Part shown: positions 43,035 through 55,998 of the stretch, piece after piece | Position numbering within the stretch: position 1 is the first letter of the stretch | Layout: the number at the start of each line of letters is the position of its first letter | NCBI GenBank assembly: GCA_963715865.1 | Contig: OY970280.1 | Location: 1,632,001-1,696,000, forward strand | Length of the DNA stretch: 64,000 nucleotides | Reading direction: 5' to 3' | Source of the DNA: Candidatus Bathyarchaeota archaeon | Lineage (GTDB): Archaea; Thermoproteota; Bathyarchaeia; Bathyarchaeales; Bathycorpusculaceae | Made by a program: the position numbers and the translations under genes | The notes under the pieces: model-generated | Told to the model about the DNA's origin: nothing | The model's database searches: none | The model's input: the letters and a program-made list of their open reading frames with translations, nothing else

Positions 43035-43143
43035 TGGTGCCGGGGGCGGGATTCGAGCCCGCGACTTCTGGGTATAAGGCGCTTGCCCCTATGACTCTCC
43101 AGATTATGAGTCTGGCGCCCTAGCCAGGCTGGGCTACCCCGGC
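43035..43143 (-). tRNA. tRNA-Met(CAT), elongator type, CCA encoded, 31-nt intron at 45/46 (43066-43096)
   Basis: GCCGGGG/CCCCGGC acceptor, CCAGA-CTCATAA-TCTGG anticodon arm, GCGGG/CCCGC T-stem; removing the intron restores AGGTC variable loop. Confidence 0.9.
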
Positions 43144-48078: not shown

Positions 48079-49436
48079 TTATGAATTATAATTACTTATC
48101 CCTATAGTTTGGGACTTATTATCCATATTTTTGAAGCTTCCGAAGCGTTTAGGCTTCCTGTAGAAATGCATCGTAATTCCGTTGAATGTAGCTTCATCAT
48201 ATTTTGTCCAGCCAGCCTTTCCTAAAGCACGAATCTCTTCAACTGTTGTTACAACGGTTTCCTCATAATCTTCCTCTTTGAACTCGATAGTATGCACATA
48301 TTTCTGCGTGCTCTTCCACGACTTATGCCTCAGCAATCTTGCGATAACAACAGCATTCCCATTCGAATAGTACGCTATCATAGAGCCGCCCCAATGACGG
48401 AACGATTTAAAACTGATCTGTAGCAATGCAGGATTCTGGAATTTTGCGGCAGCCTTTACGACGAAGCGCTGCAAGGCATACATAAGCAGTCCGATAGGTC
48501 ATTGGAAAAATCCGTTTGTTTTCCCTAGGCAAAGCATTCAACATGCAGGTCAAACGCATCGACAACTCGTATTTACCAGGGTAATGGAACTTCACTGGAT
48601 GATTAATACTGAACACATTATCCTTGAGGTCAATCCATTCAGCATCAAGAATCTCTGACGGATCAGCAAAAGTCTCTTTAAGGCACAGCAGAAAAGTAGC
48701 CATACGCTTACTCGCAGCACTAATAAGCAAATCAAGGTCTTTCTCATCAGGCACAATGATAGTAGCTTCCCTCTGACGATACAGCGGACGCTGCCAAACA
48801 ATCCCCTCCATCTGACAAAACGCATCATAAGCACACACCGCCAGCATTTTCATACTGTCACTCCAAGGCTCACCATTCTTCTTTTTCTGCTTAGCAATTA
48901 CCATCTTCACATTTTCAGAGTCCAACAGGTCAGCGCCATCACCGACAAGATGCGTCAGAATATCAGGGTACGTTATATCTTCATCAAAACCATTACGCTC
49001 CAAGTACGCCATGAATTTTGTAATCAAGCCACGCACAGCTTCAGGTAACAGGTCCAGATGCTTCAGTTTTCTTCTTGTCTCCCGCAACAGTCTTTAATTC
49101 TGCTGCAGAGGTCAAATTTTTCGCTCCCAAAGCGCATATTTGGCGTTTAGAAGCTAAGGCACTGGACGTATTTAATGACCTTTCAGAACTTTCTTGTAAC
49201 GGTGGTGACCCTTTAAGGGTCGGTCTCTCGCTAAAACGGAATCCGCAATCCCTGCAAAGCCAACGCTGAACACTAGATTTATCACTCCTATAACGCAGGC
49301 CATCACGATAAACCTTCGTCACCTTAGGACTGCAACTGGGGCATAGGGGGCTGGCGCCATCACTAGCCAACTTGCCCAAACCAACACTGCCAAATACACG
49401 CTCTTGAGCAAGACCAACCATTCCCTCCCCAGCCAT
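48079..49436 (-). pseudogene. int: Tyrosine integrase with N-terminal Zn ribbon, split by two frameshifts
   Basis: CPSC...WLCRDCG; core in 48407-49087; catalytic FRHW...LLRHKSWKSTQKY in 48079-48483. Confidence 0.88.
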
Positions 49437-49437
49437 C

Positions 49438-49605
49438 TTAACCCTCCGTAAATACGCGACCGTTCTCTTCAGCCAAATCCATCAATTCTTTGCGTTTAGC
49501 AGCTTCCTTAAGGCGTCTATCACATGGTCCACAATAATTAACAAACCGAGAAACGACGTCACCGCATTCTCGGCAGTGATGATGCTCAGGGACGCCTTCA
49601 GCCAA
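49438..49605 (-). CDS. 55-aa zinc-finger protein (not in ORF track), candidate recombination directionality factor
   Basis: MAEGVPEHHHCRECG...NYCGPCDRRLKEAAKRKE; overlaps RAMP stop, ends 1 nt before integrase start. Confidence 0.7.
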   Translation of the reverse strand: MAEGVPEHHHCRECGDVVSRFVNYCGPCDRRLKEAAKRKELMDLAEENGRVFTEG

Positions 49606-50248
49606 CAGTTTCACCTAACTCGCCTTTTGGACCTACAGAAGAATCCACGGTGACGGCGGCGCCTTCAGCGGCAGCTACTTCTTGACCATCATAGGTGAAG
49701 CTGACAACTTCGAAAGTTCCAAACGAGCCCTTATGCTGAGGCCTATAATCCAGCAAACCCATCCGGACACCCGCATCTTCCAAAATTTCTTTCAGCGTAG
49801 CCTCGATGCCTTCAGGCAGCCACTTAACATTATAGACAAGCCTAAACTTTGCACTCCATTGCAATAGTTTCGCTCTGCCTTTAAGAACCCGCTGCGACTG
49901 AATCACAACCGCCCGCTCATCAACCACGTACTGATCCGTACCCAAAGGAATCTTCTCAGGCTCCACACGCATCGTACCAGCAAGCAAACTCGAAAGCGAA
50001 ACCCTATGAACCCTGTACTGCTTAGCCGTATTGATAAGCATGCTCTGCACGCATTCCTGAGGAATGTAAAGCTGGTTTTTGCCGTTGATCACTGCCATGT
50101 AAGCGCTGTTCTTTGCATCGTTCTCTGTACTATAGTTCTGCGTCTTCATTTTACTTTTACTTTTCAAACTTTCCGGATTCAACCGGTTCATTAGCAAGGG
50201 CGTTAAGCCCTTAATTTCAACATCTATTTTTTTAAAGTTTTGACTCAT
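49598..50248 (-). CDS. Stand-alone Cas7/RAMP-like protein
   Basis: N-terminal strand IKGLTPLLMN, LYIPQECVQSML (YIP-SxKG-like), C-terminal Gly-rich loop GVRMGLLDYRPQHKGSFGTFEV. Confidence 0.75.
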   Translation of the reverse strand: MSQNFKKIDVEIKGLTPLLMNRLNPESLKSKSKMKTQNYSTENDAKNSAYMAVINGKNQLYIPQECVQSMLINTAKQYRVHRVSLSSLLAGTMRVEPEKIPLGTDQYVVDERAVVIQSQRVLKGRAKLLQWSAKFRLVYNVKWLPEGIEATLKEILEDAGVRMGLLDYRPQHKGSFGTFEVVSFTYDGQEVAAAEGAAVTVDSSVGPKGELGETVG

Positions 50249-51288
50249 TTTTGTAACCTCACGTTACCATACCTGAGAGCACTGTAGCTAACGGCGCCCC
50301 GCCTTCCCTCACTAAACCAAAATAGCGGCTTACCATGCCTCACAATACATCGCATCACCAAGCCAGGCATCACTGAACTCAACCTAACTGGACACCGCAA
50401 AACATGACCTAACCGCGATGATACCAAGGAATACCACGCATTACGCGACAGGACAGTACCAAGCCAAACTTGACCCCGCCTTAATAACGCCAAAGAACAC
50501 TTCGCCTTGCTGTACCTCACCACTGCTAACCACAATGAAAGCAAAGATTGCAGCAACCGTGCCAAACCGCAACTCACAAAACCCCGCTTGACATTGCCAA
50601 ACCTCAATAAAACCATGCCAAGCCTTGCATAACCGTACTTCACAGGACCAAACTTCGCCACGCCGTAGAGTGCCTCGCGACTCCAAGCCACGCAACGCCG
50701 TAATAACGCCAAACCATGCAAAACCATACCGTGCAGTACACCAACCCGCTCCACGATACCAAACAGGGCCTCTCCAAACCACGATAACACTTTACCACAC
50801 AAAACCAAGCCCCGCACCACAGATCCCCACGCAACGCAACAGGACCTCGCTAAGCCACAATAGCACCTAACCGTAGAGAACAAAGCACCACTTGACCCAA
50901 CAGAACCGGACTCCACTCCGCTACACCATAATAAAAGCTTGGCTTGCCTTGCTTCACCCAACCGGACCGTTCCCTGCCATAATGAAAGCTTAGAGAAACT
51001 ATCCTCGCAAAGCCGTACCTTACGATACCTAACCGGACAGGACAGAATAGTGCCATGCAATACTAAACCTCGCAACGCCTCAATAATAGCAAACCTAGCA
51101 AACCTTACTTTACTCAACCTAGCAGTACAGGGCCTCACAAGACCTAGAAACACAAGACCAGACCTAAGAATACACTGCCGGGCACCACTACACACCACAG
51201 GACCATACCTGACATCAATAGCGCCACACCTTACCTTAGAGGACCGGGCAACACCGCATCTTACCCCACGACACTTGACCCTAAACAT
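50245..51288 (-). other. Stop-free 347-codon ORF spanning the whole array
   Basis: ATG at 51288 overlaps ParB-like stop; TGA overlaps RAMP ATG (ATGA); G/R/V/L/C-rich low-complexity product. Confidence 0.55.
50256..51282 (-). ncRNA. Pentameric NN-GGY repeat array, putative multi-guide RNA precursor
   Basis: ~185-190 in-phase 5-mers (plus strand RCC-nn, e.g. gccgt acctt acgat accta accgg acagg), 12 AT-rich separators, directly upstream of RAMP gene. Confidence 0.8.
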
Positions 51289-52033
51289 GAAAACGCAACC
51301 TCTCAAAATCCAAATGCGCCCGATTAACCAACTCTTTAATGACAGGATCATCCAGCGGAAAACGCCCCGACTCCGCCAGACTACAAAACAGCACCAAAGC
51401 GTTCTTCAGCTCCACAAGCTCACGGCCACTCAAACCAGGCTGAACCTTCCCATTCTTGGAATCCACATGAAACCGCTTGCCGCATGGCGCCGTCAAAGTC
51501 ACAATAGGCGCAGCAGACTCACGGTAAATCTCAGCAGCCGGAACATGCACAAGCGCCACGATATCTTTCACGTCAAATTTGAACTTTTTAAGCCGAGCAA
51601 TGTTATCCTTAAGCTCCACGTCGCTGAAACCCTTGCCATGGCCACTATTAAGCCTCACCGCCTCAGCAAACAACTCAGCCTCACTAGAAAACGGCAACTC
51701 AGAACATTCCGCATACTCAACCTTGCGAAGCTTCCGAGAACTAAACCGATGAACACCATCAACAAGAATCTTCTGACCCTTGAAAACGCCAACCTTCAAA
51801 GTTGGAAAAACACAACCCGCATCCAAAGCCCTGGCATAATTTTCAACAACCCTCTGATCAATCTCCTTACGCGGATAAAGACTCCAATCAAAAACCAGAT
51901 CAGCAAGCTTCTCAATACGAACTGGCGCCCTATCCCAATCCTTAAACGCAAAACCAGCAGCTGGCTTAACCTCAACGCTCTTTTGCGGAGCAGGCGGCAT
52001 ATAAACAACTTTACCAGCAACAGGAGACTTCAA
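51281..52033 (-). CDS. ParB/Srx-like domain protein
   Basis: LYPR, ILVDGVHR, AVRLNSGHG motifs. Confidence 0.8.
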   Translation of the reverse strand: MKSPVAGKVVYMPPAPQKSVEVKPAAGFAFKDWDRAPVRIEKLADLVFDWSLYPRKEIDQRVVENYARALDAGCVFPTLKVGVFKGQKILVDGVHRFSSRKLRKVEYAECSELPFSSEAELFAEAVRLNSGHGKGFSDVELKDNIARLKKFKFDVKDIVALVHVPAAEIYRESAAPIVTLTAPCGKRFHVDSKNGKVQPGLSGRELVELKNALVLFCSLAESGRFPLDDPVIKELVNRAHLDFERLRFHV

Positions 52034-52242
52034 CTAGACGCCTCCAGCTTTGGCTTTTTCAACGGTATAAAAACAACCGGGTGCTTATCCAACCGACTAA
52101 AAATACACCTGTAACCCTCAGCTTCAAGGGCAGTCTTCCAAGCAGCATCGAACTCTGGCTTCTGAATAACTAGGCACTCTCCATACGGCGTCACATCTTT
52201 AGGCGGACCAAAACGCGACTTAAGCTCATCAACCGAAACCAT
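52030..52242 (-). CDS. Viral hypothetical protein
   Basis: 70 aa, GGAGG RBS, coupled overlaps. Confidence 0.7.
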   Translation of the reverse strand: MVSVDELKSRFGPPKDVTPYGECLVIQKPEFDAAWKTALEAEGYRCIFSRLDKHPVVFIPLKKPKLEASS

Positions 52243-55140: not shown

Positions 55141-55998
55141 CTAAGATGTACGTGGTAAACTTGGCGGAAAAAGCAACGTTTGAATTTGCTTACCGTACTT
55201 CACAGCCATGGCTGTCTTGATTTCTTGATATTCAGCAGGATCCAAGGAAGTTCCGCAGCACGGACAAATCGGCGTACCCTCCGGAATAGTTTCGGGTACC
55301 ATAATTTTTTTAGGTTTAGGCTCTGTAGACGATGTAACCGATGTAGACGATGTGGGAATTCCCTCTTTTTTGCTGTCGGATATCTCACTACTGGAAGTAA
55401 CCCTATGCACTTCCTCTTCTCGCGCTGTCTCATACTTTGATTTTAGCGCCTCCGAGATTTTTCCCGATGTCTCACTCTTAAGTTCTTGAGGCATGTACTT
55501 GTAAATTGTTTTTTTACTAATGCCTGTGACTTTAGCGATTTCTTCAGGCTTCAACCCGGCCTTAACAAGAAAAGTTACGCGCTGCGCAATCTCTTCAGGC
55601 GAAACTTTGCGCCTGTTAAAATTAGCCGCCAACATAGCTAACTGAAGCTTAACAGGCGTATCAATTTGAGGCCTCACTTCAGTATGCCACTTCGGGTTTT
55701 CCCCCAGCCTATGGAAACCATCAATAACATTCCCATGCGCATCCATCAACACCGGATACAGTTCGCCAAGCCCTTCACCTGATGTGGCAAGACTGTAAGG
55801 CGCTTCCTCATCCGCTTTCGGCTCTTCTACCTCTTCTACCGCCTCTACCTTCTCTACTTCCTCTACCTCAGTTTCTTCAAGTGCCTGTTGAGTCAGGGGC
55901 GCAGGAACAGGCCCATAATGACTATGCGACCAATGAAGTCTATACTCAAGCCCTGAATCAAAAACCCTATGGCATTTGGGACAAGCAACCTTACCCAT
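55141..55998 (-). CDS. C2H2 Zn finger + ParB-like + HTH protein
   Basis: CPKC...HWSHSH; VIDGFHRL; KPEEIAKVTGISKKTIYKY; C-terminal CPCC. Confidence 0.8.
   Translation of the reverse strand: MGKVACPKCHRVFDSGLEYRLHWSHSHYGPVPAPLTQQALEETEVEEVEKVEAVEEVEEPKADEEAPYSLATSGEGLGELYPVLMDAHGNVIDGFHRLGENPKWHTEVRPQIDTPVKLQLAMLAANFNRRKVSPEEIAQRVTFLVKAGLKPEEIAKVTGISKKTIYKYMPQELKSETSGKISEALKSKYETAREEEVHRVTSSSEISDSKKEGIPTSSTSVTSSTEPKPKKIMVPETIPEGTPICPCCGTSLDPAEYQEIKTAMAVKYGKQIQTLLFPPSLPRTS

What the first reader, a model, noticed from the sequence alone, without database searches (positions are those of the whole stretch)
50245..51288. The guide-like array is held as a stop-free, translationally coupled ORF (dual RNA/protein coding)
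Seen: ATG 51288 overlaps the ParB-like stop and the frame runs 347 codons to a TGA overlapping the RAMP ATG (ATGA). I counted ~44 stop triplets on the sense strand of the array. None falls in this frame, versus ~15 expected (naive (2/3)^44, about 2e-8). Nine of 12 separators sit in the same codon phase, and many blocks are 51, 66, 81 or 96 nt, i.e. 6 nt + 9/12/15/18 pentamers (steps of 15 nt = 5 codons). A 5-nt period is not protein-driven, so the RNA pattern is primary, yet the frame looks selected. Inference: ribosome transit keeps transcription coupled across 1 kb of non-coding RNA, avoiding FttA/aCPSF1-type termination of untranslated archaeal RNA. It would also drive coupled translation of the RAMP gene, and ribosomes might compete with RAMP loading as a regulatory switch.
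Basis: partly seen in the sequence, partly recalled or inferred. Interest (0 to 1): 0.88.

Follow-up and report, generated by a model that had tools for sequence, protein, structure and literature searches.

The report
Guide-RNA array kept as open frame
This 1-kb stretch is the guide-RNA array of a recently described virus-borne, CRISPR-like VIPR system, and in this group of archaeal viruses the array is also kept free of stop codons in exactly one frame, so ribosomes probably read through it although the peptide itself is not conserved.

Summary
On the minus strand, ATG 51288 overlaps the stop of the upstream ParB-like gene. The frame then runs 347 codons to a TGA that overlaps the start of the downstream gene. 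Stops by frame are 0, 20 and 24, and none of 20,000 shuffles that keep the repeat scaffold gave an open frame.

The system itself is already known. The downstream "RAMP" is a Vipr protein and the 5-nt GGY/NN repeats are its vrRNA guide array (VIPR, bioRxiv 2026). This scan has met VIPR arrays before on other phage DNA.

The open frame appears to be new. About 20 diverged related arrays from Bathyarchaeia viruses keep one of six frames stop-free. They share a conserved Shine-Dalgarno (SD)-like site and ATG at the upstream gene's stop. Stops are avoided by using C instead of T at the free Y position, and by excluding TA guides in that phase. There is no selection on the amino acids.

Sister clades have the same gene order but no open frame, so translation is a clade-specific add-on and not intrinsic to VIPR. 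Why ribosomes should transit (coupled vipr translation, anti-termination, or a feedback switch) remains untested.

The parts
51281..52033 (-). vap-type accessory gene (ParB-like, 250 aa, VDGVHR motif). Its TAG stop is at 51283-51281.
   Evidence: PHROG phrog_1033, ParB-like partition protein, E=3.4e-8. A 220-275 aa ORF sits in this position in every related locus.
51298..51302 (-). Shine-Dalgarno-like GAGGT, 9 nt upstream of the array-frame ATG
   Evidence: Read directly. The equivalent AGGTG/GGAGGTG is conserved at the same spacing across the open-frame clade and is absent in the outer clades that lack an open frame.
51286..51288 (-). ATG start of the array frame, 5 nt before the vap stop (ATGnnTAG overlap)
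   Evidence: ATG at -5 occurs in 13 of 22 non-redundant open arrays, and TTG or GTG at -5 in 2 more. In several loci a stop 20 nt upstream leaves it as the only possible start. Public gene callers chose exactly this start: P0004 is on record in NCBI, ENA and Logan.
50245..51288 (-). vrRNA guide array: about 190 degenerate GGY/NN pentamers (here xGY-NN) in about 13 units. It is also one stop-free frame of 347 codons.
   Evidence: 5-nt periodicity, HMM segmentation, stop counts of 0/20/24 and shuffles. The 5-nt signal is conserved upstream of every Bathyarchaeial Vipr homologue (L001-L007) and weak upstream of the Thermococcus one (L008).
50324..51220 (-). 12 short unit separators of the form YAT-YNN-GG. 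First bases on the minus strand are 51220, 51085, 50984, 50933, 50862, 50786, 50705, 50609, 50537, 50486, 50420 and 50324. A thirteenth, in-phase separator lies near 51049.
   Evidence: Regex and HMM. Unit lengths are mostly 5k+1. There is no long structured 3' tail of the kind seen in type II VIPR.
50792..50856 (-). One 13-pentamer guide. Read by the published 1-nt-skip rule, its NN bases match motif I (FDPCCGSGG) of the host type I methylase gene hsdM.
   Evidence: 23 of 26 NN bases match in codon register at genome position 558,672. The best of 150 shuffled guides reached 21. Skip lengths of 0 and 2 give 19 and 18. The target ORF carries N6_Mtase and HsdM_N domains.
50256..50260 (-). SD-like GAGGT of vipr, 7 nt upstream of its ATG
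   Evidence: It is weaker (5-6 nt match) than in arrays without an open frame (7-9 nt match to GGAGGTGAT).
50245..50248 (-). ATGA overlap: the stop of the array frame lies inside the start of vipr
   Evidence: The same overlap occurs in 9 of 22 non-redundant open arrays. In most of the others the frame stops 4 to 31 nt upstream of the vipr start; in L020 and L029 it stops 50 and 127 nt upstream.
49598..50248 (-). vipr gene (216 aa): a single-RRM RAMP protein, the RNA-binding subunit of VIPR
   Evidence: A profile of 60 homologues hits PDB 36pp_D, 'SUSP1 Vipr protein', at E=1.6e-9. The AF2 model has pLDDT 86, and its top fold matches are Csm3, Cmr4 and type VII Cas7 at E~1e-6. PHROG phrog_4652 matches at E=4e-14.

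Best explanation
The stretch is the vrRNA guide array of a VIPR system (Vipr RAMP protein plus GGY/NN pentamer guide RNAs) carried by a provirus in what is probably a Bathyarchaeia genome. In this viral clade the array lies between the ParB-like accessory gene and vipr.

The array is also kept as a single uninterrupted reading frame. The frame starts at an SD+ATG overlapping the accessory gene's stop and ends at or next to the vipr start. Selection acts only on the absence of stop codons, not on the encoded peptide. In-frame T-AA, T-AG and T-GA are avoided by using C at the free Y position of GGY, which keeps the guide intact. The guide dinucleotide TA is excluded wherever TA-G would be a codon.

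Shown here: the VIPR identity, the selected openness, the conserved start and stop context, and the lack of constraint on amino acids.

Inferred: ribosomes actually traverse the array (about 85% likely). Their transit most likely serves expression of the distal operon. That could be termination-reinitiation coupling onto vipr, whose own SD is weak where the ATGA overlap exists. It could also be protection of a long, G-rich, otherwise untranslated nascent RNA from premature termination or decay. The two purposes are not yet separable (together about 55%).
For: VIPR identity:
- Sequence and fold matches to Vipr and RAMP proteins.
- The 5-nt array is conserved upstream of every Bathyarchaeial homologue and is weak upstream of the Thermococcus one.
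- One guide matches host hsdM by the 1-nt-skip rule in codon register.
- The published description fits (10.64898/2026.04.26.720920).

Selected openness:
- Stops are 0/20/24 by frame, and 0 of 20,000 scaffold-preserving shuffles are open.
- In 22 non-redundant arrays the linking sense frame has 0 stops over 462-1,233 nt. The other five frames have 2-25 each.
- The trait clusters in one Vipr clade: 26 open, 8 partly open and 3 closed among 38 rows.

How the frame stays open (2,785 pentamers):
- In-frame Y before AA/AG/GA is C 151 times and T 0 times. Off-frame it is T 298 and C 150.
- C-plus-stop-prone NN makes up 16.0% of in-frame pentamers against 8.1% off-frame.
- NN=TA makes up 0.3% of pentamers where NN plus the next base (normally G) forms an in-frame codon, against 4.8-7.9% in the other two phases.
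- Homologous units that are read in different frames in different loci differ by exactly such T-to-C swaps.

No protein-level constraint:
- Substitution rate by codon position is 0.154, 0.172 and 0.182 (p=0.31). By pentamer position it is 0.27, 0.07, 0.25, 0.17 and 0.10.
- Synonymous changes number 84 against 76.8 +/- 7.2 expected. Stop-creating changes number 0 against 10.4 expected.
- 21% of homologous bases are read in different codon phases in different arrays.

Translation signals: SD-like AGGTG plus ATG at -5 of the vap stop occurs only in this clade. The ATGA overlap and nearby stops are shown.

Purpose:
- The vipr SD match is 0-7 nt (mostly 5-6) in ATGA-coupled arrays, 4-9 in other open arrays, and 7-9 in arrays without an open frame.
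- Open arrays are longer (median about 850 nt) than closed ones (about 450 nt).
- The one clear secondary loss (L049/L050) has gained a T9 tract and a strong SD between the array and vipr.
Against: There are no expression data. No RNA run was listed, and no ribosome or peptide data exist.

Sister clades with the same gene order, including a Thermococcus contig, have arrays of up to about 600 nt with stops in all frames. These abut the vipr SD directly. Co-transcription of an untranslated array is evidently tolerated in some archaea.

vipr keeps an SD of its own in most loci, so coupling is not strictly needed.

The trends in SD strength and array length are not corrected for phylogeny and rest on few independent lineages.

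Three loci inside the clade (L012, L039, L041) carry the array as 2-3 overlapping ORFs in different frames. These could be assembly indels or tolerated breaks.
Confidence: 0.72

Rival explanations
1. Feedback switch. Vipr protomers assembling on the nascent GGY repeats compete with ribosomes that translate the same RNA. When Vipr is abundant it blocks transit, and with it the coupled translation (or transcription) of vipr, so Vipr level is set against guide supply.
For: The array frame feeds directly into the vipr start (ATGA) where the vipr SD is weak. Published structures show that Vipr polymerises along the vrRNA and sequesters each GGY (10.64898/2026.04.26.720927). That would be a physical block to a ribosome.
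Against: Nothing here tests it. Closed-frame clades regulate vipr without it. Many open arrays end 4-50 nt before vipr and have a strong SD.
Confidence: 0.2
2. True dual coding. The 347-aa Gly/Val/Arg/Cys/Leu-rich basic polypeptide is itself functional, for example as a nucleic-acid-binding or repeat protein with a 5-residue period.
For: The frame is open, has an SD and ATG, and is called as a CDS in public records. A 15-nt superperiod would give a 5-residue repeat.
Against: There is no codon-position effect and no excess of synonymous change. The same homologous units are read in different frames in different loci. No Pfam, NCBIfam, PHROG or PADLOC family matches. Only 5 weak protein-level relatives were found although hundreds of loci exist. 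Length varies from about 150 to about 410 aa.
Confidence: 0.06
3. Transit for RNA handling rather than for vipr. Ribosomes keep the long G-rich nascent RNA off the template (avoiding R-loops), or keep it unfolded and protected until it is cut at the YAT separators and loaded.
For: The transcript is strongly G-rich: GC skew is -0.34 on the plus strand over 50-52 kb. The units have only about 6-nt separators and no structured tails. Open arrays are the longest.
Against: Closed-frame arrays are just as G-rich, with canonical GGT repeats, and manage without it. There is no direct evidence.
Confidence: 0.1
4. The open frame is a by-product of low A content, of the repeat scaffold, or of shared ancestry, and there is no translation.
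For: The strand is A-poor (16%). Other VIPR arrays found by this scan in GC-rich phages are open in several frames by composition alone (earlier notes e1-3441004 and e1-3439898).
Against: The other two sense frames carry 20 and 24 stops and the antisense frames 6-24. Shuffles that keep composition and scaffold never give an open frame. The frame persists across arrays of different content and length. Ten stop-creating substitutions are expected between relatives and none is seen.
Confidence: 0.03

Closest known systems
VIPR systems (Vipr + vrRNA; bioRxiv 10.64898/2026.04.26.720920, 10.64898/2026.04.26.720927, 10.64898/2026.10.15.759431)
   Same: A single-RRM RAMP protein homologous to SUSP1 Vipr. 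Guide RNA built from GGY/NN pentamers. A minimal locus of vipr plus one DNA-related accessory gene. A viral or proviral setting. A guide that matches a coding sequence with the skipped base at the wobble position.
   Different: Published vrRNAs are described as non-coding and intergenic; the three VIPR preprints I text-searched never mention an ORF over the array, its translation or stop codons. Here the whole ~1-kb array is one frame coupled to both neighbouring genes. The first G of GGY is degenerate, which is close to the 'YNNNG' variant named in that paper's methods. The units are joined by ~6-nt YAT-YNN separators and lack the structured 3' tail of type II.
Staggered or contiguous VIPR arrays (fig. 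S18 of the first VIPR preprint) and the closed-frame sister clades found here (L059, L071, L078)
   Same: Many guides are packed head to tail with minimal separators between vap and vipr.
   Different: The sister clades keep strict 5-nt phase with a TTCGN or TTYNN separator pentamer and canonical GGT. They have stops in every frame and a strong vipr SD.
Translational coupling of overlapping genes (ATGA-type and ATGnnTAA-type overlaps; reviewed in PMC12548453)
   Same: Stop and start overlap at both ends of the frame, with SD-like sequences placed inside the upstream coding region.
   Different: The bridging 'gene' is 1 kb of guide RNA whose peptide is unconstrained.
Leader peptides and upstream ORFs, where the act of translation matters and not the product (own knowledge)
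   Same: Selection acts on ribosome passage only.
   Different: Those are tens of codons long. This frame is 150-410 codons and doubles as a guide array.
Antitermination of untranslated bacterial CRISPR arrays by boxA/Nus factors against Rho (Stringer et al. 2020, eLife; own knowledge, not retrieved here)
   Same: The problem is the same: a long untranslated guide array is exposed to factor-dependent termination.
   Different: If the anti-polarity reading is right, the solution here is translation itself. The archaeal terminator would be FttA/aCPSF1, whose role in policing coupling is still hypothetical (PMC11616081).

Membership tests
VIPR system | Vipr protein: a minimal RAMP (RRM core, G-loop, thumb) homologous to described Viprs | tested here: met
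   A family profile hits PDB 36pp_D, SUSP1 Vipr, at E=1.6e-9 over residues 23-184. The AF2 model has pLDDT 86, and its best folds are Csm3, Cmr4 and type VII Cas7.
VIPR system | vrRNA made of tandem YNNGG (GGY/NN) pentamers next to vipr | tested here: met
   5-nt G periodicity is 0.27-0.31. About 190 pentamers are segmented. The second G and the NN are the most conserved positions between homologous units, and the first G and the Y are the least. The first G is degenerate here.
VIPR system | Minimal locus of vipr plus one vap accessory gene with a DNA-related function | tested here: met
   A ParB-like 220-275 aa gene lies directly upstream of the array in all loci with enough sequence. Which numbered vap it corresponds to could not be determined.
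VIPR system | Guides recognise DNA by the 1-nt-skip (xNN) rule, typically in coding sequence with the skip at the wobble position | tested here: inconclusive
   One guide matches 23 of 26 NN bases (88%) to host hsdM motif I in codon register. Shuffled guides reached at most 21, and other skip lengths gave 18-19. The other guides do not exceed their controls in the host genome, and viral targets were not searched.
VIPR system | vrRNAs are expressed, processed and bound by Vipr | not testable with these tools
   No RNA run could be listed.
VIPR type II architecture | Discrete ~100-nt vrRNAs, each ending in a conserved structured 3' tail | tested here: not met
   Units are joined by ~6-nt separators only. 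By contrast, Pseudomonas phage LESphi2 shows repeats plus ~40-50-nt tails in an annotated intergenic gap.
Conventional protein-coding gene | Open frame with a start codon and a ribosome-binding site | tested here: met
Conventional protein-coding gene | Purifying selection on the amino-acid sequence (third-position excess, excess of synonymous change) | tested here: not met
   Rates by codon position are 0.154, 0.172 and 0.182 (p=0.31). Synonymous changes number 84 against 76.8 +/- 7.2 expected.
Conventional protein-coding gene | Recognisable protein family or protein-level homologues | tested here: not met
   No Pfam, NCBIfam, PADLOC or PHROG hit. Only 5 weak relatives were found.
Translationally coupled operon | Overlapping or abutting stop and start codons at gene junctions | tested here: met
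   ATGnnTAG at 51288-51281 and ATGA at 50248-50245. Both are recurrent in the clade.
Translationally coupled operon | Downstream translation depends on upstream translation | not testable with these tools
   This needs a stop-insertion experiment.

The most novel reading that the evidence does not exclude
In one clade of archaeal viruses a guide-RNA array is an obligatorily translated 'transit ORF'. Ribosomes must run the full length of the array for the effector gene behind it to be expressed. Effector protein loading onto the same nascent RNA competes with them, which would give a built-in feedback between guide supply and effector level. This would be the first guide array whose sequence space is shaped by the genetic code: TA guides are forbidden in one phase, and the Y of GGY acts as a 'synonymous' site.
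Probability: 0.22. Interest if true: 0.82.

Novelty: new variant of a known kind. Interest (0 to 1): 0.62.

Why it matters
Guide-RNA arrays (CRISPR, TIGR, VIPR) are treated as non-coding, and the published surveys look for them in intergenic DNA. Three consequences follow from what is shown here.

First, a whole clade of VIPR arrays is annotated as a hypothetical protein, so it is invisible to intergenic-only searches.

Second, the need to stay open limits which guides can be encoded. The tolerated T/C position of the GGY scaffold is used to pay that cost. This is a clean natural example of two codes, with 5-nt and 3-nt periods, sharing one sequence.

Third, it gives a simple handle on an open question in archaea, namely whether untranslated RNA is policed by termination or decay. 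A single C-to-T change makes a stop without touching the guide code.

Tried and rejected
- Tandem Repeats Finder and Rfam found nothing in the array, because the repeats are too degenerate and no family exists.
- Pfam, NCBIfam and PADLOC gave no hit for the array frame, vipr or vap.
- Single-sequence AF2 of vipr was useless (pLDDT 35). The alignment-based model was used instead.
- No RNA holder was listed for the locus or the array.
- A protein-level homologue search with the array peptide returned only 5 relatives. It is unsuitable for tracing arrays, so loci were traced through vipr.
- My first per-locus ORF script took only the last stop-free run and under-called open frames. It was replaced. 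Four loci (L035, L037, L038, L040) have a ~100-nt gap between array and vipr. Those four were classed from the numbers. L048 (contig cut at its 5' end) and L072 (gene start mis-assigned) also failed the second boundary rule; L048 fell into the 'short' class and L072 was left unclassed.
- Rejected: an antisense gene as the cause of openness.
- Rejected: block quantisation in 15-nt steps as a system property.
- Rejected: avoidance of T runs as an informative test. The scaffold itself caps T runs at 4.
- Rejected: the longer 368-codon frame from ATG 51351 as the real start. The upstream extension is not conserved, and several loci have a stop 20 nt before the vap stop.
- PHROG annotation of the neighbouring large ORFs was uninformative for virus type.
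Full report
**1.
All coordinates are on the minus strand. ATG 51288-51286 lies 5 nt before the TAG (51283-51281) that ends the upstream 250-aa ORF. From this ATG the frame runs 347 codons to TGA 50247-50245, which overlaps the ATG (50248-50246) of the next gene. The body has 0, 20 and 24 stops in the three sense frames and 6-24 in the antisense frames. G shows autocorrelation of 0.31, 0.27 and 0.28 at lags 5, 10 and 15. When the sequence is printed in fives, xGY-NN pentamers appear, broken by short YAT-YNN separators.

Openness is not a by-product of composition or of the repeat scaffold. None of 20,000 mononucleotide shuffles gave an open frame. The same holds for 20,000 shuffles each of the NN dinucleotides, the YNN triplets or whole pentamers with scaffold and separators kept. 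These averaged 14-16 stops per frame and never fell below 3.

**2. What the locus is.**
The downstream 216-aa protein has more than 250 close relatives in metagenomes. A profile of 60 of them hits one solved structure, 'SUSP1 Vipr protein' (PDB 36pp_D), at E=1.6e-9. The alignment-based AF2 model (pLDDT 86) is most similar to the Cas7-type RAMPs Csm3, Cmr4 and type VII Cas7.

VIPR (Viral Interference Programmable Repeat) systems were described in 2026 preprints. A Vipr RAMP polymerises on vrRNAs made of GGY/NN pentamers. The NN bases read double-stranded DNA while skipping every third target base. Loci are minimal (vipr plus one vap gene) and mostly viral (10.64898/2026.04.26.720920 and .720927).

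The upstream gene here is ParB-like (PHROG E=3.4e-8). Relatives lie on IMG/VR viral contigs and in Bathyarchaeia MAGs. The host genome has one copy.

One 13-pentamer guide (50792-50856) matches 23 of 26 NN bases, in codon register, to the SAM-binding motif I (FDPCCGSGG) of the host's type I methylase gene hsdM. The best of 150 shuffled guides reached 21, and skip lengths of 0 and 2 gave 19 and 18.

So the 'guide-like array' is a vrRNA array and the 'RAMP' is Vipr. That part is already known, and this scan has met VIPR arrays on other phage DNA before.

**3. The open frame is conserved in a clade.**
I fetched 84 loci through Vipr. Every Bathyarchaeial homologue (L001-L007) has a 5-nt-periodic array directly upstream. 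The Thermococcus locus L008 shows only a weak signal over about 300 nt.

In 22 non-redundant arrays, exactly one of six frames has no stop over 462-1,233 nt. The other five frames carry 2-25 stops each. These arrays have Vipr 54-94% identical to the window's copy, and their content and length differ widely.

On a Vipr tree the trait sits in one clade of 38 rows: 26 open, 8 partly open and 3 closed. Of the exceptions inside the clade:
- L012, L039 and L041 carry the array as 2-3 long overlapping ORFs in different frames. These are recent frameshifts or assembly indels.
- L049/L050 have truly lost the frame, and have gained a T9 tract and a strong SD in front of vipr.

The outer clades have the same vap-array-vipr order but 6-17 stops in every frame. 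They are L059/60/65/66, L071, L068, L076 and L078 together with the Thermococcus contig L008. They also keep strict 5-nt phase with TTCGN-type separators, canonical GGT, and a 7-9-nt SD for vipr. Translation is therefore an add-on of one viral lineage and not a property of VIPR arrays.

**4. How the frame is kept open, and what is and is not selected.**
With a GGYNN scaffold, stops can only arise as T-AA, T-AG or T-GA (Y plus NN) or as TA-G (NN plus G). Every frame meets each of these positions once per 15 nt.

Counts over 2,785 pentamers:
- In the open frame, Y before AA, AG or GA is C 151 times and T never. In the other two phases T is preferred 298 to 150.
- C-plus-stop-prone NN makes up 16.0% of in-frame pentamers against 8.1% off-frame. 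About half of the would-be stops are therefore rescued by the T-to-C choice, with the guide kept, and half are absent.
- The guide dinucleotide TA makes up 0.3% of pentamers in the phase where NN plus the next base forms an in-frame codon, against 4.8-7.9% in the other two phases.

Homologous units that are read in different frames in different loci differ by exactly these swaps, for example T-AA against C-AA and T-GA against C-GA.

In ten independent locus pairs (824 aligned codons):
- Substitutions depend strongly on pentamer position (0.27, 0.07, 0.25, 0.17, 0.10).
- They do not depend on codon position (0.154, 0.172, 0.182; p=0.31).
- Synonymous changes are not enriched (84 against 76.8 +/- 7.2 expected).
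- The 10.4 stop-creating changes expected are all missing.

In addition, 21% of homologous bases are read in a different codon phase in another array. The only constraint at the 'protein' level is the absence of stops. The peptide itself is very unlikely to matter.

**5. Signals of translation.**
Within the open clade, the 3' end of vap carries an SD-like AGGTG (GAGGT at 51302-51298 here), followed 9-10 nt later by the start. That start is an ATG 5 nt before the vap stop in 13 of 22 arrays, and TTG or GTG in 2 more. In several loci an upstream in-frame stop leaves this as the only possible start. The motif is absent from the outer, closed clades. It persists as a relic in L049.

The frame ends in the ATGA overlap with vipr in 9 arrays. 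In most others it ends 4-31 nt upstream; in L020 and L029 it ends 50 and 127 nt upstream. Public gene callers have annotated exactly this ORF and some relatives as hypothetical proteins.

**6. Why ribosomes should pass: inferred, not shown.**
Three observations lean towards 'expression of what lies behind':
- Arrays with the ATGA overlap have a weak vipr SD (0-7, mostly 5-6 matching bases). Open arrays that stop earlier have 4-9, and closed arrays 7-9.
- Open arrays are about twice as long as closed ones.
- The one clean loss coincides with a terminator-like T9 and a new strong SD.

This fits termination-reinitiation coupling onto vipr. It also fits protection of a long, G-rich, otherwise naked nascent RNA from premature termination or decay.

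Against it as a general need, closed-frame arrays of up to 600 nt abut the vipr SD in sister clades, one of them from Thermococcus. These trends rest on few lineages and are not phylogenetically corrected.

Competition between ribosomes and Vipr on the same RNA is an attractive feedback idea and remains open. So does a role for transit in keeping the G-rich RNA off the template. No RNA data could be found.

**7. Comparison and novelty.**
The system is a member of VIPR. Its array architecture differs from the characterised type II, which has discrete ~100-nt vrRNAs with structured tails in intergenic DNA. Pseudomonas phage LESphi2 shows that form. The array here is nearer to the 'staggered' or contiguous arrays and to the degenerate YNNNG repeat variant mentioned in the first preprint.

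The three VIPR preprints, by text search, never mention an ORF, translation or stop codons in connection with the arrays. A fourth preprint, read only for its VIPR passages, surveys intergenic regions only. Arrays called as CDS would be missed by such a survey. I therefore rate the finding as a new variant of a known kind.

Unit lengths across the clade follow 5k+1 and are not enriched for multiples of three (39:40:26).

**8. Verdict.**
- The most useful next step is a single C-to-T change at an in-frame C-AA, C-AG or C-GA pentamer. It makes a stop without altering the guide code and separates the candidate purposes.

Noticed in passing
window 50792-50856 (-); host genome position ~558,672 (L086:755-2347, -): Read by the 1-nt-skip rule, one guide spells motif I (FDPCCGSGG) of the host's own type I restriction-modification methylase HsdM. 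It matches 23 of 26 NN bases in codon register. A provirus guide aimed at a conserved methylase motif would suggest silencing of host (or rival) restriction-modification genes rather than only rival phages.
   Followed up: partly
window ~50615-50699 (-); host genome ~1,023,680 (L087:668-2197, +): The best host match of a 17-pentamer guide is 26 of 34 NN bases, in codon register (shuffled guides reached 24). It falls in a 509-aa PAPS-reductase-domain plus 4Fe-4S protein (DndC-like). This is below the published 80% threshold, so it is only a lead.
   Followed up: partly
L059:1969-2477, L078:1699-2310: Sister-clade arrays keep one unbroken 5-nt phase for 400-500 nt. They mark unit boundaries by replacing GGY with TTC or TTT in a single pentamer (TTCGN, TTYNN). 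This is a different separator grammar from the YAT-YNN (5k+1) separators of the window's clade.
   Followed up: partly
L049:2423-2467 and L050 (same place): This is the only clear loss of the open frame inside the clade. It has a T9 run and a new GGAGGTG SD between the array and vipr, as if the array had become its own transcription unit. The relic ATG at -5 of the vap stop is still present.
   Followed up: partly
L012, L039, L041: The arrays are covered by two or three long overlapping ORFs in different frames. Each is far longer than chance allows. These may be recent frameshifts, assembly indels, or tolerated re-initiation.
   Followed up: no
window 43038-43143 (-): A 106-nt tRNA match (Rfam, 58.9 bits), longer than a standard tRNA and so possibly intron-bearing. 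It lies about 5 kb from the zinc-ribbon and integrase-like ORF fragments at 48079-49436, and could be the provirus attachment site.
   Followed up: no
window 50939-52114 (+): A 391-codon antisense ORF spans vap and part of the array. It is explained by the T-poor composition of that strand and is not conserved as open in relatives.
   Followed up: yes
L088 (Pseudomonas phage LESphi2, locus 2093-2425) and L089 (Mycobacterium phage Brocalys, locus ~2041-2340): Distant Vipr homologues (24-27% identity) occur in cultured Pseudomonas, Gordonia and Mycobacterium phages. They have strong 5-nt-periodic tracts in the annotated gap just upstream. In LESphi2 there are three vrRNA-like units with ~40-50-nt tails. 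The genes are annotated only as hypothetical proteins.
   Followed up: partly
window 55141-55998 (-): A second ParB-like / HTH protein (PHROG hits E~1e-5) lies about 3 kb upstream of the VIPR operon in the same orientation.
   Followed up: no
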